From a virus, in IMG/VR virus record IMGVR_UViG_3300008954_000003, positions 32,001-96,000 of that record: a stretch of 64,000 nucleotides of DNA. One strand, written 5' to 3'. The translations under genes and the position numbers were made by a program. The notes under the pieces were generated by a model. The model ran no database searches, was not told where the DNA came from, and saw only the letters and a program-made list of their open reading frames with translations. Position 1 is the first letter of the stretch, and the number at the start of each line of letters is the position of its first letter. Shown piece by piece: positions 1 to 38,562 of the stretch.

Positions 1-350
1 AATTCTCTGACCTGATTGACAAGGAGTTGAGTGGTTTTGGCCATTTCCCAGAAGTGATCTGGAAAGCCATGCACATTTCAAACATGCTGTACCTTTCAGA
101 TGTGTCATCTATCGCTGACATCGAAGCTGCAATCTGTAGAACCCCTGTGTTTTTACCGAGAGAAGGTTCTCTTGTCGAAGAAAAGTTGAAGTTTATGAGC
201 CCGAGATACAAAGATCTGTTTGAAAGGGGTTTGATTTTTGATTCGATAGAAGGGTGGAGTGAGTCCGAGTACAAGAAAGGGGTTGAAGACTTCATTCAAG
301 AATGGTACAATACGGACGTAAATGAATTTTGGAAGCGGGTATACGAATGA
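1..350 (+). CDS. 3' part of a probable GT-B fold transferase (TagF/capsule-biosynthesis/sialyltransferase-like); truncated by the window edge
   Basis: The frame is open from the window start. The motif YLSDVSSIADIEAAICRTPV resembles the C-terminal 'SDxSS...EA...PV' segment of GT-B/TagF-like proteins. The stop overlaps the pseB start (ATGA). Confidence 0.4.
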   Translation, partial: FSDLIDKELSGFGHFPEVIWKAMHISNMLYLSDVSSIADIEAAICRTPVFLPREGSLVEEKLKFMSPRYKDLFERGLIFDSIEGWSESEYKKGVEDFIQEWYNTDVNEFWKRVYE

Positions 351-1315
351 AAATATTGATAACAGGAGGATCTGGATCTCTTGGAAGAGCTTTGGTCGCG
401 ATATTGAAAGAAGAGGGTCGGCACACCATTGCCGTTTATAGTCGTAATGAGGCTAAGTTGGCGAAGTATTTTGGTAGAGAACCCAGCGTCAAATGTTTCA
501 TTGGTGATGTTAGAGATTATAAAAGACTTAATAGTGTCATGAAGATGTTTCAACCAACTCATGTAATTCATGCTGCGGCATTGAAAAGAATTGATGATAT
601 GGAAATACACCCAACAGAGTGTATCGCTACGAACGTTGAGGGGTCAAAAAACGTGGCAAATGCCGCTATTGAGAACGGTGTGCAGAGATGTGTTCTTGTG
701 TCGACAGACAAAGCTTGTTTGCCAGTGAATACATATGGTGCAAGCAAGTTCTTAGCTGAACGACTTTTTACAAACTTTGATTACAGCTACTCTTCAACAA
801 GGCTTGCTTCAATACGATATGGAAATGTCATTGCAAGTCGTGGGTCTTTTATCCCAATGTGGATGAACGCCATAAAGAATGGCGAAATGATTGGAGTCAC
901 TTCGCTTGAGTGCAGTCGATTCTTGTTCACACTTCACGATGCAGCCAAGGCTGTCATTTCTGCACTTCATTATATGAGCGGCGGGGAAGTGTTTGTTCCT
1001 AAGTTAAAATCTTATAGGATGACGAGTGTGCTGGAAGCTTTGAAAAAATGTCTTGATGTGAAAGATATATCATATGATGTAATTGGTTTGCGGCCCGGAG
1101 AAAAGATTCATGAAGATATGTTATCTGAACTGGAATTAGAGCGAACGTTTGAAGTCAATGGGAAATTGTTGGCGATATTGCCGCAGTATTCTAATAGAGC
1201 GCATTTTGGGACGATACCATACAAAGGGGCTCTTTTGAATTCTGATTTGTGTGCTTCCAAAGATAACGAAGAGCTTGCAAAACTTATAATTCGTGGAGTT
1301 GAGGAGTCAAAATGA
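347..1315 (+). CDS. pseB: UDP-N-acetylglucosamine 4,6-dehydratase (PseB/FlaA1, polysaccharide biosynthesis protein family)
   Basis: ILITGGSGSLG Rossmann motif, GDVRD, HAAALK, STDKA, NTYGASK, RYGNVIASRGS, GLRPGEKIHE. ATG at 347 overlaps the upstream TGA. Confidence 0.9.
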   Translation: MKILITGGSGSLGRALVAILKEEGRHTIAVYSRNEAKLAKYFGREPSVKCFIGDVRDYKRLNSVMKMFQPTHVIHAAALKRIDDMEIHPTECIATNVEGSKNVANAAIENGVQRCVLVSTDKACLPVNTYGASKFLAERLFTNFDYSYSSTRLASIRYGNVIASRGSFIPMWMNAIKNGEMIGVTSLECSRFLFTLHDAAKAVISALHYMSGGEVFVPKLKSYRMTSVLEALKKCLDVKDISYDVIGLRPGEKIHEDMLSELELERTFEVNGKLLAILPQYSNRAHFGTIPYKGALLNSDLCASKDNEELAKLIIRGVEESK

Positions 1316-2589
1316 TGAGGACGAAGGAGGTGAGATTGTGGGAGAATGCTTGTCGTTATATCCCAAGAGGGACGATGACACTTAGTAAATGCCCAGATCA
1401 GTTTGTTGAGGGGGTTTATCCTATATTTGCAGATAGAGCTTACGGCGCAACGATTGTTGGTATAGATGGCCGGGAATACCTTGATTTTATGTGCGGGCTT
1501 GGCCCAATTGTTCTTGGATACGGGGATCCTGTTGTGAACGAGGCGATTAAAAAGCAGTTGGAGAAGGGAACAATTTTTCCGTTACCAACACTATTGGAAA
1601 CCAAACTTGCGAAACTTATTGTTGAAACTGTTCCAAGTGCAGAAATGGTTCGGTTTGCAAAGAACGGAACAGATGTCTGCACAGCAGCAGTTCGTATCGC
1701 AAGGTCATACACTGGGAAAGAACATGTTTTGAAGTGCGGCTATCATGGGTGGTCTGATTGGCATGGTATTACAACAGGCCGTGAACACGGCATTCCGAAG
1801 AGCATGAAAAAGATAATCAGCGAGTTCAAATACAACGACTTGGACGACCTTGAGAGTCTTTTGAAAAAATATGAAGTTGCCTGCATCATCATGGAAGCTG
1901 AGGCTTTGGAAGCGCCGAAACCGGGTTATTTAGATGGTGTGCGCGAACTTGCAACAAAGTATGAGGCTTTGCTTATCTTTGATGAGGTCGTGACAGGATA
2001 TCGTTGGGGCCTTGGTGGCGCACAAGAAATGTTTGATGTCATTCCAGATTTGACAACACTTGGGAAATCGATTGCAAATGGACTTCCACTAAGTGTTATT
2101 TGTGGAAAGAAGAAATACATGGAAGAATTGAATCATGTTTTCTTTTCAATGACTTTTGGAGGGGAATGTCTTTCGATGGCGGCAGCAGTTGCAACGATTG
2201 AAGAATTGAAGAAAAAAGATTACGGAGCACTGTGGGAACTAAACCGAAAGTTTATACAAGGAATCAATAATGCCGCAACCAAACACAAACTCCTCATTAA
2301 TTTTGCAGGGACTGGCTTAAGACATAACCTTACTTTTGATAAATCGTATAAGGACCCCTCCGGGATGAGAGATTTGTTTTATCAGAGGATGATCGATTTT
2401 AACGTCTTTTTCTCAAACGTCCTATACCTTCAGTTCTCACATACAGAAAGTGATATTGAAGATGCAGTAGCTGCGGCAGAACAATCATTCGCCTTTGTGA
2501 AAGCGAACATGAATGATATCGATGGGGCTTTGAACGGAAAAAGAAGCGTTTCTGTTTTTCTAAAGAGAGACAAAGATGAGGAAGATTGA
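1312..2589 (+). CDS. Class-III PLP-dependent aminotransferase (glutamate-1-semialdehyde aminomutase-like), probably a sugar aminotransferase
   Basis: DGREYLDF, VRFAKNGTD, GYHGW, LIFDEVVTGYR, PDLTTLGKSIANG (PLP lysine), TFGG; lies inside the sugar operon. Confidence 0.85.
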   Translation: MMRTKEVRLWENACRYIPRGTMTLSKCPDQFVEGVYPIFADRAYGATIVGIDGREYLDFMCGLGPIVLGYGDPVVNEAIKKQLEKGTIFPLPTLLETKLAKLIVETVPSAEMVRFAKNGTDVCTAAVRIARSYTGKEHVLKCGYHGWSDWHGITTGREHGIPKSMKKIISEFKYNDLDDLESLLKKYEVACIIMEAEALEAPKPGYLDGVRELATKYEALLIFDEVVTGYRWGLGGAQEMFDVIPDLTTLGKSIANGLPLSVICGKKKYMEELNHVFFSMTFGGECLSMAAAVATIEELKKKDYGALWELNRKFIQGINNAATKHKLLINFAGTGLRHNLTFDKSYKDPSGMRDLFYQRMIDFNVFFSNVLYLQFSHTESDIEDAVAAAEQSFAFVKANMNDIDGALNGKRSVSVFLKRDKDEED

Positions 2590-3268
2590 AGATACTCTTT
2601 TCATAATTCAAGCAAGGGTCGATTCATCTCGCATTGAGCGGAAGATGATTCGACCTTTTGCTGATTCGTGCCTGTTTGAAATAGCAATAAAGAAAGTGCT
2701 CTCCTCTAAGATTCCAAAGGAGAATTTTTATGTGTCGATATTGGACAAAGAGCTTGAAGAGATTGCCCTCAAATACAAAGTGAATATGTTTATGAGGGGC
2801 AAGGGGACCTTGGAAGAACCAATAACACTTCAAAAGATATTTGAGTGGAGACTATTACCCTTTAAACATTATGTGAATTTGGGTGCCTGCAATCCGCTTG
2901 TGACCACAGAAACAATCGACAATTTTATTGAAGAGTTTCTTGCAATGCCTGAAGAGCGGACGGGAATGTTCGCGGTGGTTCCAAGAAGAAACTTCTTTTA
3001 TAACAGCCAAGGGAAGATGATAAATCTCTTTCATGGAAAAAAAGAGCACCTTGTTACCCTGGAAACAAAATTGGTTGGAACAACCTATGAAGCGGCACAT
3101 ACATTGTATGCCGGACAAATTGAAGATATTGAAAAAGGAATTTATATGGGTAATTTTGAAAATTACGAAGTCGCCTTTTATAGCATGAAAGAAGAAGAAG
3201 TCTTTGATATTGATTATCCATGGCAATTTGATTTGGCAGAACAGATGTATATTTTGAGGAACAAGTGA
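2576..3268 (+). CDS. neuA: Acylneuraminate (CMP-nonulosonic acid) cytidylyltransferase, NeuA/PseF family
   Basis: N-terminal IIQARVDSSRIERKMIRPF and C-terminal FDIDYPWQF motifs; near the NeuB homolog. Confidence 0.8.
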   Translation: MRKIEDTLFIIQARVDSSRIERKMIRPFADSCLFEIAIKKVLSSKIPKENFYVSILDKELEEIALKYKVNMFMRGKGTLEEPITLQKIFEWRLLPFKHYVNLGACNPLVTTETIDNFIEEFLAMPEERTGMFAVVPRRNFFYNSQGKMINLFHGKKEHLVTLETKLVGTTYEAAHTLYAGQIEDIEKGIYMGNFENYEVAFYSMKEEEVFDIDYPWQFDLAEQMYILRNK

Positions 3269-4134
3269 AAGCAGTTATAATTGGGAATGGTTCAATCGGA
3301 AAGCGCCATAAGAGGAATTTGAAGGAGATGGGCATTGATGTTCGAACAGTTGATGTCGACGAGGCTCACAACCTTAATGCGATATTAAACAGTCGTGTTT
3401 GGGATTTTGGCCTTGTGTGCAGCCCGACGAACCTTCATCTTCAACACACATATGAACTTGTTAGGAGGGGCATTCCAACGTTTTGTGAAAAACCGTTTTA
3501 TCGAGAAAAAGATAAAGAGCTTTTGACGAAAATAAGGCGTTGTGTGAAACACAAAAACCTTCCAAATATGGTCGGTTGCAATTTGAGATTTCATGAAGAG
3601 ATAGCCCAGGTGGCAAACCATGGCTTTTTTAAGAAACCAGATGTTGCATATGCTCATTTTGGTTATGATTTGAAAAAATGGCATAATGACGGGAAACATC
3701 TTGAATTATATAGTGCAAACAAAAGTATGGGTGGCGGCATAACATTTGATGCCATACATGAGTTCGACTATCTTTATCATTGGTATGGAGAAATTGATAA
3801 GATCGATGTTGTTGCAAAGAAAGTGTCAGACGTAACAGTTGACACAGAGGATGTATGCGATGGGAAGATTTATTTCAGAAACGGACAGGTTGCTTATATC
3901 CATTTGGATTATTTAGCACCAGAGTATACAAGGTTTTTTATGTTTCCTTATTCACCAAGCTGTTATTACTACGACAAACCCATTAATATTGTACCAAGTA
4001 ATGAGATGTATGAATTTGAGATGAGGTACTTTGTAGGAAACCTGATATATGATGTAGAAGGGTGTATCAATTCTTTTGATGAAGCAATACACCTGATTGA
4101 CAAAATAAACGAAGGACTAAAATATGAATTCTAA
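3265..4134 (+). CDS. Gfo/Idh/MocA family oxidoreductase
   Basis: GNGSIGKRH, CSPTNLH, CEKP, VGCNLRFH, GGG-FDAIHEFD. Confidence 0.85.
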   Translation: MKAVIIGNGSIGKRHKRNLKEMGIDVRTVDVDEAHNLNAILNSRVWDFGLVCSPTNLHLQHTYELVRRGIPTFCEKPFYREKDKELLTKIRRCVKHKNLPNMVGCNLRFHEEIAQVANHGFFKKPDVAYAHFGYDLKKWHNDGKHLELYSANKSMGGGITFDAIHEFDYLYHWYGEIDKIDVVAKKVSDVTVDTEDVCDGKIYFRNGQVAYIHLDYLAPEYTRFFMFPYSPSCYYYDKPINIVPSNEMYEFEMRYFVGNLIYDVEGCINSFDEAIHLIDKINEGLKYEF

Positions 4135-5143
4135 AAAGACATATGTAATCGCGGAAGTTGGAGCCAACCACGATCGTGAGTTCGGCAAAGCTTGGAAGAT
4201 GATAGAGGTTGCTGCCGAAGCGGGAGCTAATGCCGTCAAGTTTCAGACATATTCAGCGGAAACTTTATATTCAAAAAACACCCCTGATTTTGCTGGGTAC
4301 AAAAACATCAATAAGCTTATCAAAAGAATTGAAATTCCAAGACATTGGCAAAAGGATTTAAAAGAAATTTGTGAGAGTTTTGACGTTGAGTTCTTGTCGA
4401 CACCGTTTGATGAAAGAGCGGTTGAAGAGCTTTATGAGCTTGGAATGAAAAGATTTAAAATTGGAAGTTTTGAGGCGAGTGACCCGAGATTCGTCAGGCT
4501 TGTTGCCTCAACAGGTTTACCATTGGTTATATCACTTGGCTGTGGGGCAAACCCAAGCGATATCATTGATTGGGTCTTGGAAGAAAATAAAGATCCCGAC
4601 ATAACATTCCTTCATTGTAATAGTGCATACCCGACGCCGCTTGAAGATATTAGGCTTGGAACCATTCGATATCAAACAGTTTATAGGAAACAATTTAGTA
4701 AAGAGATATGCCCAAAGCGCGGCCTCTCTGATCACACAAAGGGGATCTTGATCCCACCAGTTGCTGTTGCATTAGGGGCGTCAGTGATAGAAAAACATTT
4801 CACGATGGATAGAGAAGGTCGTGGACCTGACCATAGTTTTGCTATTGAACCTAATGAGTTAAAACAGATGATTGAAAATATTCGCAAAGTTGAAATAGCA
4901 ATGGGAGAAAGGCACGGATCAACATTAACGATAAGCGAACAAAAATTTGCTCATGCGAAAAGGTCAATCGTGGCGAAAAAGCGTATTAATCCCGGTGAGA
5001 TTTTTACGAAAGACAACATAACAACGATAAGACCGTGTTTTGAACATAATATTCCGGCTGAAGAGTTTTATAATATTCTTGGTAAAGAGTGCAAGGAGGA
5101 GTTGTTGGAGGGCGAGGCTTTAACAAAGTGGGGAAAAAAATAA
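4124..5143 (+). CDS. neuB: N-acetylneuraminate/pseudaminate synthase (NeuB/PseI) with C-terminal SAF domain
   Basis: IAEVGANH, AVKFQTY, FLSTPFD, HCNSAYPT, GLSDHT, IEKHFT, GPDH, RSIVA (SAF). Confidence 0.93.
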   Translation: MNSKKTYVIAEVGANHDREFGKAWKMIEVAAEAGANAVKFQTYSAETLYSKNTPDFAGYKNINKLIKRIEIPRHWQKDLKEICESFDVEFLSTPFDERAVEELYELGMKRFKIGSFEASDPRFVRLVASTGLPLVISLGCGANPSDIIDWVLEENKDPDITFLHCNSAYPTPLEDIRLGTIRYQTVYRKQFSKEICPKRGLSDHTKGILIPPVAVALGASVIEKHFTMDREGRGPDHSFAIEPNELKQMIENIRKVEIAMGERHGSTLTISEQKFAHAKRSIVAKKRINPGEIFTKDNITTIRPCFEHNIPAEEFYNILGKECKEELLEGEALTKWGKK

Positions 5144-5844
5144 TGGCATATATTCTTTGTAAAGATTTAAAATATATTGATGTTGAGAGACTGAGGCAAC
5201 GAAGTGCCACCCAGTGGTTTGTTATCCAGGAAGAAGATCTATTGAACCCGGATCCTATGTGGGCAAATGTACACACTGTCATCGAGCACTTTACTTCGTC
5301 CTCGGATAGGAAAATCTTTGTTCCATTTTACTCAAAGAAGATTCCAAAAGAAATTTATGAAAAGTACGAGGTGATAATTTTTCACATGACGGATGTTCCT
5401 TATGGCCGAGGAGGCTCACCTCTTCAAAATCTTATAAAAAGAGGCCATAGCTTGACAAAAATAGCAGCATTACAATGTACTGACAATTTAGACGCAGGAG
5501 ACGTTTACCTTAAAGAGATGTTATCCCTCGATGGGACAGCAGAAGAAATTTACAAGAGAGCAGGTCTTATTATTGAAGATATGATGTGGAGAATCGCAAA
5601 AATGAACATTGTTCCAAAGCCACAAATTGGAACTGTGACAAAATTTAAACGCCGAAAGCCGGCGCAAAGTGAGATTGTTACCGAATGTGGCTTGACAGAG
5701 CTTTATGATCACATCAGAATGTTAGATGCGCCTGATTATCCAAAAGCTTTTGTTGAATACAACAATTATCGTTTGGAATTTACAGGGGCACGCTTGGAAA
5801 ATGGCAAGTTAACAGCGAACGTTGAGTTCGTGGAGGATGAATAA
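5143..5844 (+). CDS. Sugar N-formyltransferase (methionyl-tRNA formyltransferase-like, short type)
   Basis: FHMTDVPYGRGGSPLQNLI, LDAGDVY, IRMLDAPDYPKAF. ATG at 5143 overlaps the TAA of neuB. Confidence 0.8.
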   Translation: MAYILCKDLKYIDVERLRQRSATQWFVIQEEDLLNPDPMWANVHTVIEHFTSSSDRKIFVPFYSKKIPKEIYEKYEVIIFHMTDVPYGRGGSPLQNLIKRGHSLTKIAALQCTDNLDAGDVYLKEMLSLDGTAEEIYKRAGLIIEDMMWRIAKMNIVPKPQIGTVTKFKRRKPAQSEIVTECGLTELYDHIRMLDAPDYPKAFVEYNNYRLEFTGARLENGKLTANVEFVEDE

Positions 5845-6497
5845 TGAAAGTTTTAGTAATGGCAGCGCACCCCGACGATGAGCTTCTTGGCTGTGGAGGG
5901 ACCATGGCGAAACTTATTGAAGAGGGTCATGAAGTTCACATTCTTGTCTTTGCAGATGGTAGTGGGGCAAGGGATAATGAGTACGAAGGGTACACAAGAA
6001 TACCGGAACTCATGACATTGGCAAACTTTATGGGAGTCAAGAGCTGTAAGGCGGGCAACTTCCCAGATAACAAGATGGATTCTGTTCCATTGCTTAATGT
6101 CTGTAAGTTTATTGAAAAGAACGTGAACTTTGAGCCGGATATCATTTTTACACATCACCCGAGTTGCTTAAACATTGATCATGCGACAGTCACTAGGGCA
6201 ACTTTGACAGCTTTTAGGCCGCAACATGGAAGCGAAATGGCGATTTATGCTTATTTTGTACCGTCTTCAACGGATTATAACCCGCTTAACACTTTTCAAG
6301 GAAACGTATATTTTGATGTTGAGGATCATCAAAAGGTTAAACTCGACAATATTGAACAATATTATGGTGGAGAGTTGAGAGAGCACCCTCATTCAAGATC
6401 TCGTGAAAATTTAGAAAACCTTATGAGAGTTTGGGGAGCAGAAGTCGGCCTTGAATATGCTGAAAAGTTTCAATTGTTACGACAGGTGGTGAAATGA
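5844..6497 (+). CDS. PIG-L/LmbE family N-deacetylase
   Basis: AAHPDDELLGCGG, THH..LNIDH, HSRS..., AEKF. Confidence 0.9.
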   Translation: MKVLVMAAHPDDELLGCGGTMAKLIEEGHEVHILVFADGSGARDNEYEGYTRIPELMTLANFMGVKSCKAGNFPDNKMDSVPLLNVCKFIEKNVNFEPDIIFTHHPSCLNIDHATVTRATLTAFRPQHGSEMAIYAYFVPSSTDYNPLNTFQGNVYFDVEDHQKVKLDNIEQYYGGELREHPHSRSRENLENLMRVWGAEVGLEYAEKFQLLRQVVK

Positions 6498-7015
6498 TAA
6501 AAGGCAAAAGGATAATATTGAGAGCGGTTGAAGAAGAGCACCTTAGTAAGTTGTTGTTGTGGCGAAATATGTATTTGCCTTATTTCCGTGAGTATAGGGT
6601 CATGGGAATCGAGGATCAGCGTCGTTGGTGGAGAGACAAAATTCTTAATGATGATTCATGGCAGTACTTTGTAGCGTGCGACCAAGCTACTGTTGTTGGG
6701 GCTGTTGGCTTAACATATATTCACCCGATTTATCAGACAGCAGAGTTTGCTATAACCGTTGGGGAACGATATCGTGGCAATGGTTATGGTTCTGATATGT
6801 TAAAGACAATAATAAAACACGGCTTTGAGAGTTTAAACCTTAACAGAATTTGGTGTGAGGTGTATGACAACAATGAAGCTATTGGTTTGTATAGAAAAAT
6901 CGGCTTCAAAGACGAAGGGACTCTGAGACAACATGTTTACAAAGATGGTAAATATCTTGATGCTCATGTTCTTGGAATGTTAAGAGAAGATTATAAGTGG
7001 AGAAACTGGAAGTGA
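6494..7015 (+). CDS. GNAT (RimJ/RimL-type) N-acetyltransferase, PseH-like
   Basis: WRN, RGNGYG acetyl-CoA motif, NNEAIGLYRKIGFKDEG; sugar operon context. Confidence 0.8.
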   Translation: MIKGKRIILRAVEEEHLSKLLLWRNMYLPYFREYRVMGIEDQRRWWRDKILNDDSWQYFVACDQATVVGAVGLTYIHPIYQTAEFAITVGERYRGNGYGSDMLKTIIKHGFESLNLNRIWCEVYDNNEAIGLYRKIGFKDEGTLRQHVYKDGKYLDAHVLGMLREDYKWRNWK

Positions 7016-7869
7016 AAATATTAGTAACAGGTGGGCTTGGATTTGTTGGTTCTAATCTTGTTGATGAACTTATGAGCAAAGAGGGTTGCGAGGTTTTTGT
7101 CATAGATAACCTTTGTTCGGATTCTTCTTCAAGAAACTATATGAGAAACGATGTGACTTATTGGATTGACGACGTTAGGAACTTAAACACATACAAATAC
7201 GATGGCCATAAATTTGATGTGATTTATCATCTTGCAGCGTTGGCGAGAATCCAACCAAGTTTTAAAGATCCGTTAACATACCTTTCAACAGATGTTCTTG
7301 GAACAGCGTGTGTTTGTGAATATGCGCGTCGGTGTTTTGCGAAGCTTGTTTATGCAGGATCATCATCAGCATATGCGGGGCCAATGTTAAACCCTTATGC
7401 TTTCGCAAAACACACCGGAGAACAAGTTTGTGAGTTATATCACCGCGTGTACGGCATGAGTACCGTTACAGCGCGGTTTTTTAATGTTTATGGTAAGAGG
7501 CAACCAACGAAAGGTGCCTATGCAACAGTTGTTGGAATTTTCGAAGGCTTAACATCAGCAGGAAAACCGCTTACAGTAACAGGTGATGGCGAGCAAAGAA
7601 GGGATTTCACACATATTTCAGATATTGTGGCAGGGTTTATATCGCTTGGAGAAGGGATTTGGCAAGCTCAAGTATTTGACCTTGGTTGTGGAAAAAACTA
7701 TTCTATAAACGAGCTTGCAGATATGTTCGGTGGAGAGAAAGTTTATATTCCAAAACGACCTGGCGAAGCAAGAGACACATTGGCAGATTTTTCTGAGATG
7801 TTCAAAGCAACAGGTTGGGAGTCCAAGGTCAAACTTGAGGGATACATTACAAATTGGTTGGTGAGGTAA
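7012..7869 (+). CDS. NAD-dependent sugar epimerase/dehydratase (extended SDR)
   Basis: VTGGLGFVG, HLAA, YAGSSS, PYAFAK (YxxxK), RFFNVYG, GDGEQRRDFTH. GTG at 7012 overlaps the upstream TGA. Confidence 0.9.
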   Translation: MKILVTGGLGFVGSNLVDELMSKEGCEVFVIDNLCSDSSSRNYMRNDVTYWIDDVRNLNTYKYDGHKFDVIYHLAALARIQPSFKDPLTYLSTDVLGTACVCEYARRCFAKLVYAGSSSAYAGPMLNPYAFAKHTGEQVCELYHRVYGMSTVTARFFNVYGKRQPTKGAYATVVGIFEGLTSAGKPLTVTGDGEQRRDFTHISDIVAGFISLGEGIWQAQVFDLGCGKNYSINELADMFGGEKVYIPKRPGEARDTLADFSEMFKATGWESKVKLEGYITNWLVR

Positions 7870-7871
7870 AG

Positions 7872-8756
7872 ATGAGAAATGCAAAAGTAGGTGTTGTTGG
7901 TTTAGGTTTTGTAGGTTCGGCTCTGATTAAGGGCCTAAAGAAGAAAGAGTATTTTAATGCAATTCACACTTATGATAAATATAAAAATTCTTCGTGTGAG
8001 TCACTCAAAGAGCTTTGCAAACAAACAGAATTAATTTTCGTTTGTGTGCCAACGCCGATGAAGACGGCAGACGGTGGAGCAAACGTAAGTTATGTTCGGG
8101 ATACGATTCTTGAAATAGATTCATACAAAAAGAATCACATTGTTGTTATAAAATCAACAGTCCCGCCGGGAACGACAAAATTAATTCAAAAGTTGTGTAC
8201 CAACTGCTCGATAGTGTTCAGCCCAGAATTCTTAACAGAAGCCAATTTCCTTAACGACTTTCTAAATCAGGACCGTATTGTCCTTGGGGGAAGTTGGAGT
8301 GCAAAACATGCGGTGAAAGACTTTTTCCAAAAAGGTTGGCAAGAAGGTGCTTCTATTACTGGTAGGGTGGGAACAAAGTATCTGTTAACAGATTCAACAA
8401 CAGCAGAAATGGTTAAATATTTTGCTAATTGTTTTTTGGCGACAAAGGTAACGTTTGCCAACGAGATGCACAATCTTTGTGAAACAGTTGGTGTTGACTA
8501 TGGAGAGGTGGTTCATATTGCGACACACGATAGAAGAATAAACAACTCCCACTTTGAAGTTCCAGGCCCAGACGGAGGTTTTGGATTTTCAGGAAGTTGT
8601 TTTCCGAAAGATCTTTGTGCATTGTTGGAGCTATTAAATCTTCATGGTCTTACAGCACCAATGTTAAACGGGGTTTGGGAATCAAATTTGCTCTCAAGAC
8701 CAGAAAGAGATTGGGAAAAATTAAAAGGTCGGGCAATAACCGACGAGGAGAAATAA
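7872..8756 (+). CDS. UDP-glucose/GDP-mannose dehydrogenase family protein, short form lacking the C-terminal domain
   Basis: GLGFVG, CVPTP, KSTVPPG, SPEFL, AEMVKY, GFSGSCFPKD (catalytic Cys); ends at about 295 aa. Confidence 0.85.
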   Translation: MRNAKVGVVGLGFVGSALIKGLKKKEYFNAIHTYDKYKNSSCESLKELCKQTELIFVCVPTPMKTADGGANVSYVRDTILEIDSYKKNHIVVIKSTVPPGTTKLIQKLCTNCSIVFSPEFLTEANFLNDFLNQDRIVLGGSWSAKHAVKDFFQKGWQEGASITGRVGTKYLLTDSTTAEMVKYFANCFLATKVTFANEMHNLCETVGVDYGEVVHIATHDRRINNSHFEVPGPDGGFGFSGSCFPKDLCALLELLNLHGLTAPMLNGVWESNLLSRPERDWEKLKGRAITDEEK

Positions 8757-8757
8757 A

Positions 8758-8949
8758 ATGGTAATTTTAAGTGATCAGGCTCTTGGGGCCGTGATGATGG
8801 CACTACAAAAGAGTTTGATGGATCAATCGGATATTGTTCCGGTTCTCAAAGGATTCCAGTTTGCTCTTCATGAGAAGAAAAACGAAACAGAGTTGATCGT
8901 TTTGAATCCGCCAATCGTCAAAGTTGACAAAGAAGATGCCGACTTATAA
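8758..8949 (+). CDS. Small hypothetical phage protein
   Basis: 63-aa ORF with GAGGAG SD, coupled to its neighbours. Confidence 0.6.
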   Translation: MVILSDQALGAVMMALQKSLMDQSDIVPVLKGFQFALHEKKNETELIVLNPPIVKVDKEDADL

Positions 8950-9190
8950 ATACAAATGTCATGTTTGTGAGAATGTTTGGGAACAGAGACACCTGTTCTC
9001 TGAAAAGCCGGAACCTTGTGAATGCAGTTCTGAGGATATAGAACGAGTACCCTCTTTCGTTCGAATAGAATCTAAAATTGAGAAGAGGCAGCTTGTTGGT
9101 GATGTGGTAAAAGAATTTTTGAAAGAAGCAACGGAAGATTTGGGACAACAACAACAAGATTACCAAAGTAAAGAATACGGAGAAGAATAA
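8936..9190 (+). CDS. FmdB-family zinc-ribbon protein
   Basis: MPTYKYKCHVC...PCECSSEDIERV is the typical FmdB N-terminus. ATG at 8936. Confidence 0.75.
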   Translation: MPTYKYKCHVCENVWEQRHLFSEKPEPCECSSEDIERVPSFVRIESKIEKRQLVGDVVKEFLKEATEDLGQQQQDYQSKEYGEE

Positions 9191-9513
9191 TGTTTTGGAC
9201 AATTTCAACAGTTGTGTTGGCTTGTGTTGTTGGTGTTCTTATAGTCTATATAAAGAATTTTTTAAAAATGTATAGTTCTATAATTGATGAATTTTTGGAG
9301 TTGAGAGAAGAGTTATTTTCTTTTCATTTCAGATTGAAGAAGGTTTATAAGATGGATCTCTATTATGGGGATGAAACCTTGAGATCGCTGATAAAACACC
9401 TGGATGTTTTGTCGGTTAAGGTTGAAGATTTTCTTGAAGCTATTGTGATTGAAGATTATGAAAAAGACGAAGACGAAGAAAGCGACGAAGACGAAGAAGA
9501 ATTATTACTTTGA
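9190..9513 (+). CDS. Hypothetical membrane-anchored protein with acidic tail
   Basis: N-terminal hydrophobic helix, YYGDETL motif, D/E-rich C-terminus. Confidence 0.65.
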   Translation: MFWTISTVVLACVVGVLIVYIKNFLKMYSSIIDEFLELREELFSFHFRLKKVYKMDLYYGDETLRSLIKHLDVLSVKVEDFLEAIVIEDYEKDEDEESDEDEEELLL

Positions 9514-10162
9514 TAAAAAGCATGAAAAGGCTGTCGTTGATTATGTTGAAGCGGTAACTCGGGAAGAGAAAACAAAGCTTTACGAAAATCTACTACAACC
9601 AGCTTTTGATGAAATGGTAGATAAGATTGTTTATACTTATAAATTCGTTTCGCTGCCAAATATTGACGATTTAAAGGATGAATGTAAACTTCATTTGATA
9701 ATGATTTTGGATAAATATGATCCGAATCGTGGTTCAACTGCGTTTGCGTATTTTTCTGTTGTGACAAAAAACTGGTTTATACAAAAAGCAAAAAAGACCA
9801 AGAAGAGAATGCAAACAGAGGTCGGCTCTGAAGAAAAGATAAAAGAATCTTTGCATCCTAACCTTGTTACGATGAACCCAAGTGAAGAGAATAGGGAAAA
9901 GAGAGAGTACTGGGAGTATCTTCTTGAAGAAATTGAATACTGGAAGAAGCTTCCCCTAAAGACAAACGAACTTGAGGTTCTTTTGGCTATTGAACATTTG
10001 ATGGAAAACATAGATGAAATAGAAATTTTTAACAAAAAAGCTATTTACCTATACATGAGAGAGATCACTGGTCTTTCAACAAAACAGATTGTTTCGTGTC
10101 TTTCAAAGATACGAAAGCAATATCGAAAGTTCAAAAGTGATTGGGAAATGGGGGAGTACTAA
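9458..10162 (+). CDS. Phage sigma-factor-like protein (T4 gp55-type late sigma, sigma70 region 2)
   Basis: DDLKDEC...KYDPNRGSTAFAYFSVVTKNWFIQ resembles the gp55/sigma region 2 pattern (F-D...AY...N.F). C-terminal helix-turn-helix-like REITGLSTKQI. Confidence 0.65.
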   Translation: MKKTKTKKATKTKKNYYFDKKHEKAVVDYVEAVTREEKTKLYENLLQPAFDEMVDKIVYTYKFVSLPNIDDLKDECKLHLIMILDKYDPNRGSTAFAYFSVVTKNWFIQKAKKTKKRMQTEVGSEEKIKESLHPNLVTMNPSEENREKREYWEYLLEEIEYWKKLPLKTNELEVLLAIEHLMENIDEIEIFNKKAIYLYMREITGLSTKQIVSCLSKIRKQYRKFKSDWEMGEY

Positions 10163-19174: not shown

Positions 19175-20964
19175 TGGCAAAAACAAGACCACCGATTTCA
19201 TATACGAGTAGAGATTTCGAATCAATTCGAAATGACCTCATAAATTATGCAAAGATTTATTACCCTGATACATATAAGGATTTTAACGAGGCTTCGTTTG
19301 GTTCTTTGATGATCGATCTCGTCTCTTATGTTGGAGATATTCTTTCTTTTTATGTTGATTATCAAGCCAATGAAAGTTTTCTTGAAACATCGATTGAGAC
19401 AAAAAACGTTTTAAAACTTGCTCGTCAAATGGGGTACAAAGTACCCGGCTCACCATCATCAACAGGTGTGGCGGCCTTTTTTGTTACAGTGCCCGCTACA
19501 TCAAACGGCGGTTCCCCCAACCCTGACTTAATTCCAATTCTTAAAGCCGGAACCCTCGTCAGCTCAGATAGCGGGGCACAATTTATTTTGAACGAAGATG
19601 TCGATTTTGGGCGCTCTGACACCTTAATTAAAGTCGCAAATGTTGATTCAGACGGGACGGTTATTTCGTATGCGATGAAAGCCTATGGAGAAATTGTATC
19701 TGGCGAGGTTAGAGAAACAACATTTGAGGTCGGCAGTGAACAGAAATTTTTGAAGCTAACCCTGCCAGATGACAACGTTACAGAAATTTTGTCTGTTGTT
19801 GATACAGAGGGTCGTGAGTATTATGAGGTGGATTACCTTTCACAAGATACAGTATTCAAAGGGGTTAGAAACCTTCAATCAGATTTTGAAACAACCCCTT
19901 ATATCTTGAAAGAGCTTCAAACACCGAGAAGGTTTGTCGTGATTCATGATTTGGATGAAGAAACGGCAATACAGTTTGGGTCTGGAACGGAGCAAGAGTT
20001 GATTGACAAAGTGTTCCCCGATCCAACGTCAGCAGTCTTAAAGATGCATGGTAAGGATTATTTCATTGGAACTTCGTTTGATCCAAACAAGATAAGTAAA
20101 ACAGAAAAGATGGGCATAGCCCCCGCCAATACAATTTTAACTGTTCGATATCGCGTCAACACAACTGATAATGTTAATGCCCCTGTGGGTTCAATCGACT
20201 CTGTTGTCTCAACCAATGTCGAATTTAGAGAGAGTGTGACAACAAGAGCTTCGGCGCTTGCATCGATTTCAAATTTTGAAGTTGATAACGAAAATCCTAT
20301 TGTTGGTTCTGTTTCATTGCCGTCTGTTGACGAAATCAAAATGAGAGCGATTGACTCCTATGCTTCGCAAAACAGGGCAGTTACGAGACAGGACTACATC
20401 AGCCTTTGTTATAGAATGCCAGCAAGGTTTGGTGCGGTGAAGAGGGTTAATATCGTTCAAGACAAAGATTCCTTTAAAAGAAATTTGAATCTCTATGTCA
20501 TCTCTGAAGATGTCGATGGCAATCTTATTAGGGCGACAACATCTCTGAAGAAGAATTTGAAAACGTGGCTTAATAGATTTAAGATGATCAACGATACTGT
20601 TGATATTTTGGATGCAACGATAGCAAACATTTCAATAACCTTTGAGGTGGTAAGTGAATTTGATGCAGATAAAACAACGGCTTTGAATGAGTGCCTTCAA
20701 GAGTTGAAAGAGCTTTACAAAACGAAATTTAGGATCGGAGAACCTCTTTACCTTGGAGATATATACAAAGCCTTGAATGACGTTGATGACGTTGTTGACA
20801 CGATAAAAGTTGTCATTAATAGAAAGACGGGAACTAATTACAGTAGCGCACAATTTGATGTCTCTGACAACTTGAAGAAGAATGGGCGTGTGCTTATTGT
20901 CCCAGAGGATATGATATTAGAAATCAGAGATTTGGATAACGATATAACAGGAATCATTAAATAA
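19174..20964 (+). CDS. Baseplate wedge protein, T4 gp6/baseplate J-like
   Basis: SRDFESIR, YKDFNEASFG, DLVSYVGDILSFY, NESFLET, IQFGSG, SQNRAVTRQDY. Confidence 0.9.
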   Translation: MAKTRPPISYTSRDFESIRNDLINYAKIYYPDTYKDFNEASFGSLMIDLVSYVGDILSFYVDYQANESFLETSIETKNVLKLARQMGYKVPGSPSSTGVAAFFVTVPATSNGGSPNPDLIPILKAGTLVSSDSGAQFILNEDVDFGRSDTLIKVANVDSDGTVISYAMKAYGEIVSGEVRETTFEVGSEQKFLKLTLPDDNVTEILSVVDTEGREYYEVDYLSQDTVFKGVRNLQSDFETTPYILKELQTPRRFVVIHDLDEETAIQFGSGTEQELIDKVFPDPTSAVLKMHGKDYFIGTSFDPNKISKTEKMGIAPANTILTVRYRVNTTDNVNAPVGSIDSVVSTNVEFRESVTTRASALASISNFEVDNENPIVGSVSLPSVDEIKMRAIDSYASQNRAVTRQDYISLCYRMPARFGAVKRVNIVQDKDSFKRNLNLYVISEDVDGNLIRATTSLKKNLKTWLNRFKMINDTVDILDATIANISITFEVVSEFDADKTTALNECLQELKELYKTKFRIGEPLYLGDIYKALNDVDDVVDTIKVVINRKTGTNYSSAQFDVSDNLKKNGRVLIVPEDMILEIRDLDNDITGIIK

Positions 20965-37488: not shown

Positions 37489-38562
37489 ATGGCTACAAGT
37501 ATTTTTAAGAATTTGGATGAGAACGATAAAGTAACACAAAAAACTTTATTGCATGAGTCAATTCCGATCACAGGATCGCTTTTGTCTGGTTCGTATGGGA
37601 CGTTTCCGAATGACACAAACGTTAAGTTTTATAGTCATGGCTATTTCCAGTCTGTGTATGATTATCCTTATGCCAGTTCTTCAGCGAACCACATTTTTGA
37701 TATCACATACGGACACAAAGAAGGTTCAGTGCCGGCACCAACAGCAAGCTCTCAAGAGAAAGAAATCAAACATGCAATCTATTCTCAAATGTCACAACTT
37801 CTGTTTGGGTATGATGCAACAGGTTCAGCGATTCCTATCAACGTATCCGGCTCGTTGTCTCCAACATCAGCGGATTGGATTGCAAACCCGTTGTTTATTA
37901 ACTTTTCAAGATTGCTTGTGAAAGATGAGATTAAAAAAGGCTCCTTTGAACTAAAGATTGCAACAAGTGGTTCAAGCTGTGGCAGTGCAAGCATGGACAA
38001 TGTTGCTACAATTGGTGATTATGCCGCAACAGGCAACACCGTGAGCTTTATTGATAATTCACCAGTTGGTGAATACGGAATCCTTTACACAGGCGCGGTT
38101 GAGAACAACAGAGAAAGAGGTTTGGTGTTTTATCAAGCGGGTATTGCTGTTCTTGACCTTGACAGATTCTTTGTAGACGATAACGAATTTAGATTTACGT
38201 CGGGAACCTATGGCTACCGGAGAATCGCTGATTCGATTATTTCGTCAAGTGTCGATGATATAGGAGATGCTGTACGTCGAAGAATCTTCAACATCAGTTT
38301 CCGCAACACAACCGAGCTTAATTCAACGGTTTATTTCTGTCGCCTAAATCACAATGAGTTCAACTATAGTTCGAACCCAACGTATGTGACCGCAAGCAAG
38401 TTGCGTGTGAAGGACAAGAATGAGGATTCACCCATATCATACGTTACAACAGTTGGTCTTTATTCCGAGGACAATGAGTTGCTTGCTGTAGGAAAACTAT
38501 CTGAGCCCTTGAAGAAAACCGCCGCAGACGAGCTTACCATTCGTGTCAGAACAGACTTCTGA
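37489..38562 (+). CDS. Virion structural protein
   Basis: DEIKKGSF, GLVFYQAG, FNYSSNP, C-terminal YVTTVGLYSEDNELLAVGKLSEPLKK...RVRTDF. Confidence 0.7.
   Translation: MATSIFKNLDENDKVTQKTLLHESIPITGSLLSGSYGTFPNDTNVKFYSHGYFQSVYDYPYASSSANHIFDITYGHKEGSVPAPTASSQEKEIKHAIYSQMSQLLFGYDATGSAIPINVSGSLSPTSADWIANPLFINFSRLLVKDEIKKGSFELKIATSGSSCGSASMDNVATIGDYAATGNTVSFIDNSPVGEYGILYTGAVENNRERGLVFYQAGIAVLDLDRFFVDDNEFRFTSGTYGYRRIADSIISSSVDDIGDAVRRRIFNISFRNTTELNSTVYFCRLNHNEFNYSSNPTYVTASKLRVKDKNEDSPISYVTTVGLYSEDNELLAVGKLSEPLKKTAADELTIRVRTDF

What the first reader, a model, noticed from the sequence alone, without database searches (positions are those of the whole stretch)
1..8756. Near-complete nonulosonic-acid (pseudaminic-type) biosynthesis operon in a phage, just upstream of the late sigma and structural genes
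Seen: eleven translationally coupled genes covering dehydratase (PseB), aminotransferase, acetyltransferase (PseH-like), synthase (PseI/NeuB), CMP-activation (PseF/NeuA), an epimerase and a UDP-sugar dehydrogenase. Established: these steps make CMP-Pse/Leg for flagellin, LPS and capsule glycosylation in bacteria. Inference: the phage makes its own activated sialic-acid-like sugar for virion decoration or host-surface remodelling. A PseG-type UDP-sugar hydrolase is not visible in the window.
Basis: partly seen in the sequence, partly recalled or inferred. Interest (0 to 1): 0.8.

Follow-up and report, generated by a model that had tools for sequence, protein, structure and literature searches.

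The report
Phage-encoded sialic-acid-like sugar pathway
An uncultured marine T4-like phage carries a complete-looking but non-standard set of genes for an activated sialic-acid-like sugar. The set is the last third of a 25-kb sugar-building island that dozens of related phages keep at the same genomic site with varying content, and what the sugar is attached to is not yet known.

Summary
Window 1-8756 has eleven overlapping + strand ORFs encoding sugar enzymes, and it is phage DNA, not a chimera.

Three corrections apply:
- The aminotransferase is class III (GSA-aminomutase-like), not PseC-type.
- The operon is the 3' third of a ~25.5-kb, 28-gene island with at least 8 glycosyltransferases, a second NeuB and a second cytidylyltransferase.
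- The island holds none of the phage's late-promoter-like motifs, so late expression is not supported.

Comparison shows 59 IMG/VR contigs with a related NeuB. Many place the cassette between the same anchor genes (PD-(D/E)XK nuclease, GT4a, GT4b ... Zn-ribbon, gp55), and 11 of 32 records searched carry a T4-type capsid gene.

The pathway is Pse-like. PseB keeps its Tyr, the GNAT is PseH-like, and NeuB is sister to PseI. PseC and PseG are missing. The class-III aminotransferase plus GFO pair is strictly exclusive with DegT (12 loci versus 25, none with both).

The acceptor is unresolved: virion proteins are favoured, host surface glycans are possible, and DNA is unlikely.

The parts
1..350 (+). 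3' end of a 375-aa GT-B protein (full gene L003:17223-18350). It is either a candidate CMP-sugar transferase or a nucleotide-sugar hydrolase/2-epimerase analogue.
   Evidence: No Pfam or NCBIfam hit. Only 37 representatives among 1.84 billion proteins. AF2 model pLDDT 93.4. Best folds are NeuC 5zlr Z 18.9, UDP-GlcNAc 2-epimerases Z 18-18.8 and TagF Z 17.2. No homologue in the 59 related viral loci.
329..1315 (+). PseB-type UDP-GlcNAc 4,6-dehydratase (Polysacc_synt_2)
   Evidence: Pfam 2.8e-78. TIGR03589 PseB scores 258.5 bits, below the 407.75 cut-off. Best PDB hit is FlaA1/PseB 2gn4 at 197 bits. The STDKA...YGASK motif keeps Tyr where FnlA has Met. Homologues in 49 related viral loci.
1312..2589 (+). 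Class-III (GSA-aminomutase-like) aminotransferase that takes the place of PseC
   Evidence: Aminotran_3 1.9e-45 and NF004856 319 bits. PDB GSAM 205 bits. PLP Lys and the DEV motif are invariant in alignment A3. Present in 12 loci, all lacking DegT; 25 loci have DegT and lack it. Cellular homologues at 41-45% identity also sit beside NeuB, PseB or GFO.
2576..3268 (+). CTP_transf_3 cytidylyltransferase, the probable CMP-nonulosonate synthetase (PseF equivalent)
   Evidence: Pfam 1.6e-13. TIGR03584 PseF scores only 39 bits. It belongs to the same blastp family as the CTP_transf_3 genes found in 31 related viral loci (7 of the 12 AT3 loci and 24 of the 25 DegT loci; several loci carry more than one).
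3265..4134 (+). GFO/IDH/MocA NAD(P) oxidoreductase, strictly coupled to the class-III aminotransferase
   Evidence: Pfam 2.3e-08 and 1.5e-06. Best PDB hits are weak: YjhC 6o15 at 27 bits and WbpB. Found in 13 loci: 12 with AT3, none with DegT, and the thirteenth is a truncated locus.
4124..5143 (+). Nonulosonic acid synthase (NeuB domain plus SAF domain), PseI-like
   Evidence: Pfam 9.2e-70. TIGR03569 scores 286 bits and TIGR03586 265 bits, both below cut-off. PDB PseI 8h2c 186 bits, ahead of SpsE 159 and NeuB 139. It is the basal member of a 48-row, mostly viral clade (SH-aLRT 100) that is sister (94) to PGAP-labelled PseI.
5143..5844 (+). Formyltransferase-fold protein (ORF opens at GTG 5089; the likely start is ATG 5143)
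   Evidence: Formyl_trans_C_2 3.8e-21 and Formyl_trans_N 5.8e-04. PDB 1zgh 187 bits. The motif FHMTDVPYGRGGSPLQN is present. The family occurs in 24 related loci, usually as NeuB-Fmt-PIG-L. No homologue in GenBank phages.
5844..6497 (+). PIG-L/LmbE-family N-deacetylase
   Evidence: Pfam 5.5e-23 and BshB1-like 5.7e-15. Found in 17 related loci.
6494..7015 (+). GNAT N-acetyltransferase, PseH-like
   Evidence: TIGR03585 PseH scores 76.3 bits against a cut-off of 93.1, and is the best NCBIfam hit. Found in 18 related loci.
6997..7869 (+). Extended-SDR NDP-sugar epimerase or reductase
   Evidence: Epimerase 2.4e-41 and GDP_Man_Dehyd 5.4e-37.
7854..8756 (+). Short NDP-sugar 6-dehydrogenase lacking the C-terminal nucleotide-binding domain
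   Evidence: UDPG_MGDP_dh central and N domains only. TIGR03026 scores 188.2 bits and covers positions 69-303 of 413. The GSCFPKD Cys motif is present. The short form of about 288 aa recurs in 5 loci.
8758..9190 (+). Downstream anchor genes: a 63-aa ORF and a Zn-ribbon protein
   Evidence: The 63-aa ORF has homologues in 16 related loci at up to 65% identity. The Zn-ribbon family is in 15 loci. Zn_ribbon_8 8.5e-08.
9449..10162 (+). gp55-type late sigma factor, the downstream phage anchor
   Evidence: phrog_234 4.5e-09. Homologues lie next to the cassette in 21 related viral loci at up to 56% identity.

Best explanation
The stretch is genuine phage DNA. It is the 3' module of a ~25.5-kb, 28-gene, all-soluble glycan-building island (genome 15,293-40,756) in an uncultured marine T4-like myovirus related to Flavobacterium phage immuto.

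The core module runs from window 329 to 7015. I infer that it converts UDP-GlcNAc into a CMP-activated, pseudaminic-type 5,7-diamino-3,5,7,9-tetradeoxy-nonulosonic acid by a non-canonical route:
- PseB-type 4,6-dehydration.
- Amination by a class-III aminotransferase working with a GFO/IDH/MocA oxidoreductase, in place of PseC.
- N-acylation by a PseH-like GNAT.
- Probable remodelling of an N-acyl group by the PIG-L deacetylase and the formyltransferase-fold enzyme.
- Condensation with PEP by the PseI-like NeuB.
- CMP activation by the CTP_transf_3 enzyme.

The nucleotide-release step (PseG in bacteria) has no recognisable enzyme.

The activated sugar, together with other sugars made by the epimerase, the dehydrogenase and the upstream genes, would then be used by the island's glycosyltransferases. 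These include two TagF/NeuC-like GT-B proteins that resemble known nonulosonate transferases.

The most likely acceptor is the phage's own virion, specifically its tail and fibre proteins, in the cytoplasm.

Shown here: the gene content, the phage origin, the conserved site with variable content, and the DegT versus AT3+GFO exclusivity. Inferred: the chemistry, the product and the acceptor.
For: Phage origin.
- T4-like core genes fill the rest of the window.
- The island is flanked by phage genes on both sides.
- Composition is continuous across the island.
- 59 IMG/VR loci carry a related NeuB, many within the same PDDEXK-GT4a-GT4b...ZnR-gp55 frame.
- A T4-type MCP lies on the same contig in 11 of 32 records searched, at 39-85% identity.
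- Cultured Flavobacterium phage immuto has a sugar island at the homologous site.

Pse-like chemistry.
- PseB keeps TDK and YGASK.
- The GNAT is PseH-like.
- NeuB hits PseI best in the PDB and is sister to the PseI clade, with the LegI reference outside.

Swap of the aminotransferase.
- There is no DegT in the genome.
- AT3 and GFO occur in 12 loci and DegT in 25, with none holding both. Fisher p = 5e-10, and at least 8 switches are needed on the NeuB tree.
- AT3 relatives in cellular MAGs also sit beside NeuB, PseB or GFO.
- A GSA-like aminotransferase and a cytidylyltransferase lie beside PseG in the Legionella Sg6 O-antigen locus (PMC3694923).

Candidate transferases. unk375 folds like NeuC or TagF, and unk319 resembles Glyphos_transf and polysialyltransferase clusters. 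The Tannerella Pse and Leg transferases are TagB-like GT-B enzymes (PMC5420450).

Virion as acceptor.
- None of the 28 island proteins has a predicted transmembrane segment, and there is no flippase, polymerase or initiating transferase.
- The tripeptide [ST][GAS]S is enriched (z = 6-9 against shuffles) in tail-region proteins at 20964-30563 and 37489-40604.
- Virion glycosylation by phage glycosyltransferases has precedent in mycobacteriophages (Freeman 2023, as cited in PMC12619734).
Against: - Every Pse-family NCBIfam score is below its equivalog cut-off.
- No enzyme for nucleotide release is identified. PseG and NeuC are absent. The GT-B candidate unk375 has no homologue in any related cassette.
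- An oxidoreductase is not obviously needed if PseB already supplies a 4-keto sugar, so the real chemistry may differ.
- The NeuB tree has few references, no bona fide Neu5Ac synthase, and a long-branch root.
- The formyltransferase-fold protein seems to lack the catalytic Asn. I read this by eye.
- For the acceptor there is no direct evidence. Soluble GT2 and GT4 enzymes also build undecaprenyl-linked O-antigens, so the lack of membrane proteins is weak evidence. Ser-rich tripeptides could simply be a feature of fibre proteins. There is no late-promoter-like motif in the island.
Confidence: 0.5

Rival explanations
1. Host-surface remodelling. The phage-made nucleotide sugars and glycosyltransferases act on the infected cell's undecaprenyl-linked LPS, capsule or general O-glycan, or on flagellin or pilin, using the host's flippase and ligase. 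The result would change the cell surface, giving superinfection exclusion, less loss of progeny on debris, or altered motility.
For: This is the usual reading of LPS-type genes in marine T4-like phages (PMC7029224). pseI in ocean viromes was read as 'motility augmentation' (PMC6359870 citing Hurwitz 2015). O-antigen GT2 and GT4 enzymes are normally soluble, so one search does not exclude this. The absence of late-promoter-like motifs inside the island would suit an early start on the host envelope. Bacteroidota such as Tannerella cap a general O-glycan with Pse or Leg (PMC5420450).
Against: The island has no initiating phosphoglycosyl transferase, flippase, polymerase, ligase or exporter. Spending 16% of a lytic phage genome on a product that must transit the host envelope within one latent period is costly. 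The tail-protein tripeptide enrichment is left unexplained.
Confidence: 0.3
2. The operon makes a different ulosonic acid from a Pse-type sugar. Candidates are a legionaminic-type isomer, a 7-hydroxy or extra-amino nonulosonate, or a higher-carbon acid. In this reading GFO plus the class-III aminotransferase introduce an amine at a position that the canonical pathways do not touch.
For: NeuB scores slightly higher on the NeuB/LegI model (286 bits) than on PseI (265 bits), and JGI labels some homologues as legionaminate synthase. unk375 has a NeuC-like fold, and NeuC/LegG is the Leg/Neu-type nucleotide-releasing 2-epimerase. The best solved relative of GFO is YjhC; from my own recall, not tested here, YjhC acts on sialic acid derivatives. 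Class-III aminotransferases typically pair with a dehydrogenase to turn an alcohol into an amine, as the C-6' aminotransferases among the hits do.
Against: The PseB-type Tyr is kept. The acetyltransferase is a PseH-like GNAT, not a LegH/PglD-type one. The NeuB clade is sister to PseI, with LegI outside. Strict exclusivity with DegT argues that AT3 and GFO replace a step rather than add one.
Confidence: 0.25
3. DNA hypermodification. The island's glycosyltransferases decorate phage DNA bases with sugars, as T4 alpha- and beta-glucosyltransferases do, and as the arabinosyl-5-hydroxycytosine systems do.
For: From my recollection of the T4 gene map, not tested here, the DNA alpha-glucosyltransferase gene lies just upstream of gene 55. 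GT4_a has a weak GT4-conflict hit (1.1e-07). T4 AGT appears among the distant GT-B fold matches of unk375.
Against: There is no thymidylate-synthase-family hydroxymethylase or hydroxylase in the record, and every known glycosylated pyrimidine starts from one (PMC13326640). There is no TGT/DpdA. In the cultured relative immuto, which has the homologous GT pair, LC-MS found canonical dA, dC and dT, with only G replaced by fdPreQ1 (PMC10516641). No nonulosonic acid has ever been reported on DNA.
Confidence: 0.03
4. Assembly chimera or bacterial contamination. In this reading the sugar genes belong to a host contig that was joined to a phage contig.
For: The genes are of cellular type. Some NeuB homologues are filed under MAG names such as Flavobacteriaceae and Pacearchaeota.
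Against: The same junctions recur in 16-21 independently assembled viral contigs. An MCP sits on the same contig in 11 records. There is no compositional break. Phage genes lie on both sides. Two of the 'cellular' NeuB proteins are identical to viral-contig proteins.
Confidence: 0.02

Closest known systems
Bacterial pseudaminic acid pathway (PseB, PseC, PseH, PseG, PseI, PseF) of Campylobacter and Helicobacter
   Same: A PseB-type dehydratase with TDK and Tyr, a PseH-like GNAT, a PseI-like synthase with a SAF domain and a CTP_transf_3 cytidylyltransferase. The gene number and overall logic match: UDP-GlcNAc to CMP-nonulosonate.
   Different: There is no DegT/PseC and no PseG. A class-III aminotransferase plus a GFO oxidoreductase replace PseC. 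A PIG-L deacetylase and a formyltransferase-fold enzyme are added. All scores fall below the NCBIfam equivalog cut-offs. The pathway is encoded by a lytic T4-like phage.
Glycan island of cultured Flavobacterium phage vB_FspM_immuto (Immutovirus, MW353176.1)
   Same: Same phage group (MCP 48% identical). Same site and anchors: PD-(D/E)XK nuclease, a small ORF, then two GT4-type glycosyltransferases (33% identical), followed by sugar-nucleotide genes.
   Different: The immuto island is about 11 kb. It carries WecE-type aminotransferases, a PglD-like acetyltransferase and an epimerase, but no NeuB, PseB or cytidylyltransferase (tblastn searches find none).
Virion glycosylation of mycobacteriophages by phage-encoded glycosyltransferases (Freeman et al. 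2023, PMC10527164, as cited in PMC12619734)
   Same: Phage-encoded soluble glycosyltransferases that would modify virion proteins in the cytoplasm. Ser/Thr-rich target stretches occur in structural proteins.
   Different: Those phages use host nucleotide sugars and only a few genes. Here the phage also encodes whole nucleotide-sugar pathways, including one for a nonulosonic acid. Nothing has been measured here.
LPS-type auxiliary genes in marine T4-like cyanophages and pelagiphages, and pseI as an ocean-virome AMG (PMC7029224; PMC6359870 citing Hurwitz 2015)
   Same: Marine T4-like phages with glycosyltransferases and sugar-nucleotide genes in hypervariable regions. pseI was detected in viral fractions.
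   Different: Those reports list single genes or small clusters and assume host O-chain or flagellar targets. I found no report of a full nonulosonate cassette inside a fixed, anchor-flanked, 10-25-kb island.
TagB-like GT-B nonulosonate transferases of Tannerella forsythia (PMC5420450)
   Same: unk375 and unk319 are GT-B proteins of the TagF/epimerase_2 type and lie next to nonulosonate genes.
   Different: There is no detectable sequence similarity. The unk375 family has no invariant His, so the HP motif is not conserved. Function is untested.

Membership tests
Canonical pseudaminic acid operon | PseB: inverting UDP-GlcNAc 4,6-dehydratase (TIGR03589) | tested here: inconclusive
   258.5 bits against a cut-off of 407.75. 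Best PDB hit is FlaA1/PseB, and TDK plus the catalytic Tyr are conserved.
Canonical pseudaminic acid operon | PseC: DegT-family C4 aminotransferase | tested here: not met
   No PF01041 match in the 159.6-kb record, while the control rings in 14 of 14 genomes. Relatives L004 and L011 do have it.
Canonical pseudaminic acid operon | PseH: GNAT N-acetyltransferase (TIGR03585) | tested here: inconclusive
   76.3 bits against a cut-off of 93.1; it is the best NCBIfam hit.
Canonical pseudaminic acid operon | PseG: UDP-sugar hydrolase (TIGR03590) | tested here: not met
   No match at E<=1 in the own record, and a match in only 1 of 36 related viral records.
Canonical pseudaminic acid operon | PseI: pseudaminic acid synthase (TIGR03586) | tested here: inconclusive
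   265.2 bits against a cut-off of 340.25. In the tree it falls in the sister clade of PGAP-labelled PseI, not inside that clade.
Canonical pseudaminic acid operon | PseF: CMP-Pse synthetase (TIGR03584) | tested here: inconclusive
   39.1 bits for the window gene and 121.2 bits for the upstream paralogue, against a cut-off of 205.7.
Legionaminic or neuraminic acid pathway | NeuC/LegG hydrolysing 2-epimerase (PF02350) and a LegC/DegT aminotransferase | tested here: not met
   PF02350 gives only an 11.8-bit fragment elsewhere in the genome, and there is no DegT. unk375 has a NeuC-like fold (Z 18.9) without sequence similarity, so a functional analogue is not excluded.
T4-like (Straboviridae-type) myovirus | gp23 MCP, gp20 portal, gp17 terminase, gp6 baseplate, gp55 late sigma and gp46 on one contig | tested here: met
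   PHROG hits: 3.5e-70 (MCP), 3.6e-62 (portal), 4.1e-52 (TerL), 1.6e-22 (gp6), 4.5e-09 (gp55) and 3.2e-49 (gp46).
Phage virion glycosylation system (mycobacteriophage type) | Glycan demonstrated on capsid or tail proteins and dependent on phage glycosyltransferases | not testable with these tools
   Only indirect evidence: soluble glycosyltransferases and tripeptide enrichment in tail proteins.
Phage DNA glycosylation system | A thymidylate-synthase-family enzyme that makes a hydroxylated pyrimidine as the sugar acceptor | tested here: not met
   No PF00303 match in the record. The record is estimated to be 88% complete, so absence is not absolute.

The most novel reading that the evidence does not exclude
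A whole lineage of marine T4-like phages coats its virions with self-made sialic-acid-like sugars. The fixed-site island that makes them is shuffled between relatives in the way bacterial O-antigen loci are, so that related phages differ in 'glycotype'. The cassette also embodies an uncharacterised route to diamino-nonulosonates that lacks both PseC and PseG, using a class-III aminotransferase plus a GFO oxidoreductase. The same pairing of genes occurs in diverse uncultured bacteria.
Probability: 0.35. Interest if true: 0.85.

Novelty: new variant of a known kind. Interest (0 to 1): 0.7.

Why it matters
Sugar genes in marine phages are usually listed as scattered 'LPS-type' auxiliary genes with assumed host targets. 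Here they form a fixed-site, anchor-flanked, highly variable island of up to 25 kb, about 16% of the genome. The island includes a full pathway for an activated nonulosonic acid, a sugar class known for capping and masking cell surfaces.

If the target is the virion, phage particles in the sea would carry diversifying acidic glycan coats. That could affect adsorption, defence evasion, aggregation and grazing, and it would extend virion glycosylation far beyond mycobacteriophages.

Independently of the target, the strict DegT versus (class-III aminotransferase + GFO) exclusivity and the general lack of PseG point to unknown enzymology in nonulosonate biosynthesis, which matters for glycobiology and for enzymatic synthesis of these sugars.

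A cultured relative, Flavobacterium phage immuto, has the homologous island, so the acceptor question can be tested directly.

Tried and rejected
- Megablast of window 1-9000 against GenBank phages gave no match.
- A single-sequence NeuB scan of IMG/VR found nothing. An alignment of NeuB homologues was needed to reach relatives.
I therefore could not inspect the contigs behind the 'cellular' NeuB homologues.
- The T4 late promoter TATAAATA is not enriched: 5 on the + strand against about 10.6 expected. I dropped it in favour of the strand-specific motif CTATTTAT.
- The sigma-70 promoter and terminator scans of the island were at shuffle level and uninformative.
- A profile of the unk375 family against PDB sequences gave only chance hits, so the fold result stands alone.
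- The genome-contig scan with the AT3 alignment returned only 5 cellular loci, because the patterns used were very specific.
- Maf-type transferases (PF01973) were not found.
- The papers on glycosylated 5-hydroxycytosine and on large-scale NulO synthase phylogeny contain nothing on phage nonulosonate pathways.
- The primary Hurwitz 2015 paper is not held, so pseI as a viral AMG is cited only through the review.
- I considered that the formyltransferase-fold gene might be the dPreQ1 formyltransferase DpdN of immuto. I rejected this: no similarity at E<=1e-5, no TGT/DpdA in the genome, and a fixed position between NeuB and PIG-L in related loci.

Full report
**What is in the window.**

Window 1-8756 carries eleven + strand ORFs whose ends overlap or abut. 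Domain searches give, in order:
- the 3' end of an unannotated 375-aa protein;
- a Polysacc_synt_2 dehydratase (PseB model 258 bits, below cut-off);
- a class-III aminotransferase of the glutamate-1-semialdehyde aminomutase type (NF004856, 319 bits);
- a CTP_transf_3 cytidylyltransferase;
- a GFO/IDH/MocA oxidoreductase;
- NeuB with a SAF domain;
- a formyltransferase-fold protein (PDB 1zgh, 187 bits);
- a PIG-L deacetylase;
- a PseH-like GNAT;
- an extended-SDR epimerase;
- a 300-aa NDP-sugar dehydrogenase that lacks the C-terminal domain.

It mislabels the aminotransferase and omits three enzymes.

**The phage and the true extent of the locus.**

The rest of the window is a T4-like myovirus. 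It has the gp55 late sigma, gp6, gp46, primase, terminase, portal and gp23-type capsid protein. The nearest cultured capsid proteins are those of Flavobacterium phage immuto (48%) and Microcystis phage Mel-JY01. The window is bases 32,001-96,000 of a 159,629-bp IMG/VR record estimated to be 88% complete.

Reading upstream (L003) shows that the operon is the last third of a continuous block of sugar genes. The block starts at genome position 15,293, just after a PD-(D/E)XK nuclease and a small Zn-ribbon ORF. It contains:
- five GT4 and three GT2 glycosyltransferases;
- a 370-aa SDR;
- a carbamoyltransferase;
- two methyltransferases;
- a DUF2334 protein;
- a second CTP_transf_3;
- a second NeuB-like protein without a SAF domain;
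- three proteins with no Pfam match.

In total this is 28 genes over about 25.5 kb. None of the 28 proteins has a predicted transmembrane segment.

**Not a chimera.**

GC content is level across the window. The tetranucleotide signature of the finding's stretch and of the whole island correlates with the rest of the genome (r = 0.943 and 0.962) as well as any other segment does (range 0.86-0.97).

The stronger evidence is comparative. An alignment of NeuB homologues retrieved 59 IMG/VR loci. tblastn and clustering of their ORFs show a recurrent frame:

PD-(D/E)XK nuclease - GT4a - GT4b - [variable cassette with PseB-like, NeuB and CTP_transf_3] - small ORF - Zn-ribbon - gp55 - orf108.

gp55 lies within 10 kb of NeuB in 21 loci. 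A more distant lineage (gp55 about 30% identical) places the cassette upstream of the nuclease instead. A homologue of this phage's capsid protein (39-85% identity) sits on the same contig in 11 of 32 records searched; the others are fragments that do not reach that far.

Among 50,697 GenBank phage records, NeuB is almost absent. It appears in 3 records, and one of those is a Moritella contig.

**A conserved site with variable content.**

Between the anchors the gene content differs from phage to phage. Many cassettes hold two NeuB and two CTP_transf_3 genes. Formyltransferase-fold and PIG-L genes come and go, and dozens of small families are shared by only a few loci. The window's phage has the largest version seen, with many genes not found in the other loci.

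The cultured Flavobacterium phage immuto has the same anchors: nuclease, small ORF, and two glycosyltransferases 33% identical to GT4a. These are followed by an 11-kb island with WecE-type aminotransferases, a PglD-like acetyltransferase, an epimerase and more glycosyltransferases, but no nonulosonate genes. The island is therefore a lineage trait, and the nonulosonate cassette is one of its interchangeable modules.

**Which sugar.**

Three enzymes point to the pseudaminic type:
- The dehydratase aligns best with H. pylori FlaA1/PseB. It keeps the STDK motif and the YGASK tyrosine, where FnlA has Met. That PglF and CapE also carry Met at this position is from my own knowledge of those structures.
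- The acetyltransferase is a PseH-like GNAT rather than a hexapeptide LegH/PglD type.
- NeuB scores best against the solved PseI structure: 186 bits, against 159 for SpsE and 139 for NeuB.

In a tree with PGAP-labelled references taken from plasmids, NeuB is the basal member of a strongly supported clade (SH-aLRT 100). The clade has 48 rows, 39 of them viral, and is sister (94) to the PseI references. A LegI from a LegB-LegC-NeuC locus falls outside. Two of the eight 'cellular' members are identical to viral-contig proteins, so the clade may be largely viral.

The tree has caveats: few references, no proven Neu5Ac synthase, a long-branch root, and quick-mode search. All NCBIfam Pse models score below their equivalog cut-offs. 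This is a Pse-like pathway, not a canonical one.

**The non-canonical steps.**

The genome has no DegT/PseC, no PseG, no NeuC/LegG and no Maf. Relatives such as L004 and L011 have the standard order PseB - DegT - NeuB - GNAT.

Across 37 informative loci, the class-III aminotransferase occurs in 12 and DegT in 25, and never both. The GFO oxidoreductase occurs in exactly the 12 aminotransferase loci, plus one truncated locus, and in none of the DegT loci. Fisher p is 5e-10. On the NeuB tree the two states need at least 8 switches, so the pattern is not one inherited event.

I read this as a non-orthologous replacement of PseC by the pair aminotransferase + GFO. Homologues of the aminotransferase in uncultured Myxococcales, Thermodesulfobacteriota, Omnitrophota and others (41-45% identity) also lie beside NeuB, PseB or GFO. 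A GSA-like aminotransferase and a cytidylyltransferase are listed next to PseG in the Legionella serogroup 6 O-antigen locus (PMC3694923). I found no paper on the function of this aminotransferase.

Why an oxidoreductase is needed is unexplained. Its best solved relatives are weak: E. coli YjhC at 27 bits and WbpB.

PseG is missing from 35 of 36 related viral records as well. The nucleotide-release step is therefore open for the whole lineage.

**Candidate transferases.**

The 375-aa protein that runs into the window belongs to a very small family, with 37 representatives among 1.84 billion proteins. It folds with high confidence (pLDDT 93.4) as a GT-B protein. The closest structures are NeuC (Z 18.9), UDP-GlcNAc 2-epimerases (Z 18-18.8) and TagF (Z 17.2), above generic GT-B enzymes at about Z 14-15.

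A second unannotated protein, unk319, lies just upstream of the second cytidylyltransferase. It resembles Glyphos_transf and polysialyltransferase clusters, many of them viral.

The proven Pse and Leg transferases of Tannerella are TagB-like GT-B proteins (PMC5420450). The island may therefore hold two sets of synthase + cytidylyltransferase + transferase. This is a lead, not a result. unk375 has no homologue in any related locus, and its family has no invariant histidine.

**Timing.**

The T4 late promoter sequence is not enriched. A different motif, CTATTTAT, occurs 13 times on the + strand and never on the - strand. It typically lies 20-40 nt upstream of the start codon of a downstream gene, as in the gaps before the window ORFs that start at 58882 and 63539. 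It does not occur between genome positions 15,293 and 40,756. The island is one gap-free array leading into gp55. This rests on a motif only.

**What the sugar is for.**

DNA is an unlikely acceptor:
- The record has no thymidylate-synthase-family enzyme, which all known glycosylated pyrimidines require (PMC13326640).
- There is no TGT/DpdA.
- The DNA of the cultured relative immuto contains canonical dA, dC and dT, with only G replaced by fdPreQ1 (PMC10516641).

Between virion proteins and the host surface the evidence is indirect.

For the virion:
- The island is self-contained and fully soluble.
- Virion glycosylation by phage glycosyltransferases has precedent (Freeman 2023, cited in PMC12619734).

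For the host surface:
- Soluble GT2 and GT4 enzymes also build lipid-linked glycans.
- The literature on marine T4-like phages assumes O-chain targets (PMC7029224).
- pseI in ocean viromes was read as acting on flagella (PMC6359870).

My estimates:

| Claim | Probability |
|---|---|
| Genuine phage pathway that yields a CMP-nonulosonate | about 0.85 |
| Pse-type product | about 0.6 |
| Virion as acceptor | about 0.45 |
| Host surface as acceptor | about 0.3 |
| DNA as acceptor | about 0.03 |

**Novelty.**

Single sugar genes, glycosyltransferases and even pseI have been reported in marine phages and viromes. In the held literature I found no description of three things: a full nonulosonate cassette in a phage genome, the anchor-flanked variable island, or the DegT versus aminotransferase + GFO alternation. 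I file it as a new variant of a known kind, namely phage auxiliary glycan genes and phage glycosylation.

An overlapping window of this same genome was already noted by the scan as a 28-gene, 25-kb island. I reached the same extent independently before reading that note.

Noticed in passing
window 7854-8756: This NDP-sugar 6-dehydrogenase is only 300 aa. It lacks the C-terminal nucleotide-binding domain but keeps the catalytic Cys motif GSCFPKD. The short form (about 288 aa) recurs in 5 related viral loci, so it is not a pseudogene.
   Followed up: partly
genome-wide; for example window 58845, 63505, 32982, 18625: The motif (A)CTATTTAT occurs 13 times on the + strand and never on the - strand, typically 20-40 nt upstream of a gene start. 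It is a candidate late promoter for this phage, different from T4's TATAAATA. It is absent from the 25-kb sugar island.
   Followed up: partly
L003:13714-16619 (genome 27,714-30,619): A second possible ulosonic-acid module: the TagF-like unk319, a second CTP_transf_3 (PseF model 121 bits), an FkbM methyltransferase, and a 236-aa NeuB-like protein without a SAF domain. Many related loci also hold two NeuB and two CTP_transf_3 genes.
   Followed up: partly
L003:8304-9932 (genome 22,304-23,932): A 542-aa NodU/CmcH-type carbamoyltransferase lies inside the island, which suggests an O-carbamoylated sugar. Only one related locus (L022) has a homologue.
   Followed up: no
window 20964-30563, 37489-40604, 58377-58799: The tripeptide [ST][GAS]S is 4-5 times more frequent than in shuffled sequences (z = 6-9) in large tail-region proteins, and also in a 140-aa protein near the capsid gene. 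It is a possible glycosylation tag, or simply a feature of fibre proteins.
   Followed up: partly
proteins P0010, P0027, P0005, P0074 (NeuB homologues): Some NeuB homologues are filed in public sources under MAG names (Flavobacteriaceae bacterium, Pacearchaeota archaeon). The MAG-named ones may therefore also come from phage contigs binned into MAGs.
   Followed up: no
genome 15,114-15,290 (L003:1114-1290): A 58-aa Cys-rich (CxxC...CxxC) ORF fills the gap between the PD-(D/E)XK nuclease and GT4a. Phage immuto also has a small ORF at the same place (immuto35A_88). I did not test whether the two are homologous.
   Followed up: no
MW353176.1 49,128-59,944 (L075, L076): Cultured Flavobacterium phage immuto carries an 11-kb, 13-gene sugar island at the homologous site. 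It is annotated gene by gene in GenBank, but I found no paper discussing it.
   Followed up: partly
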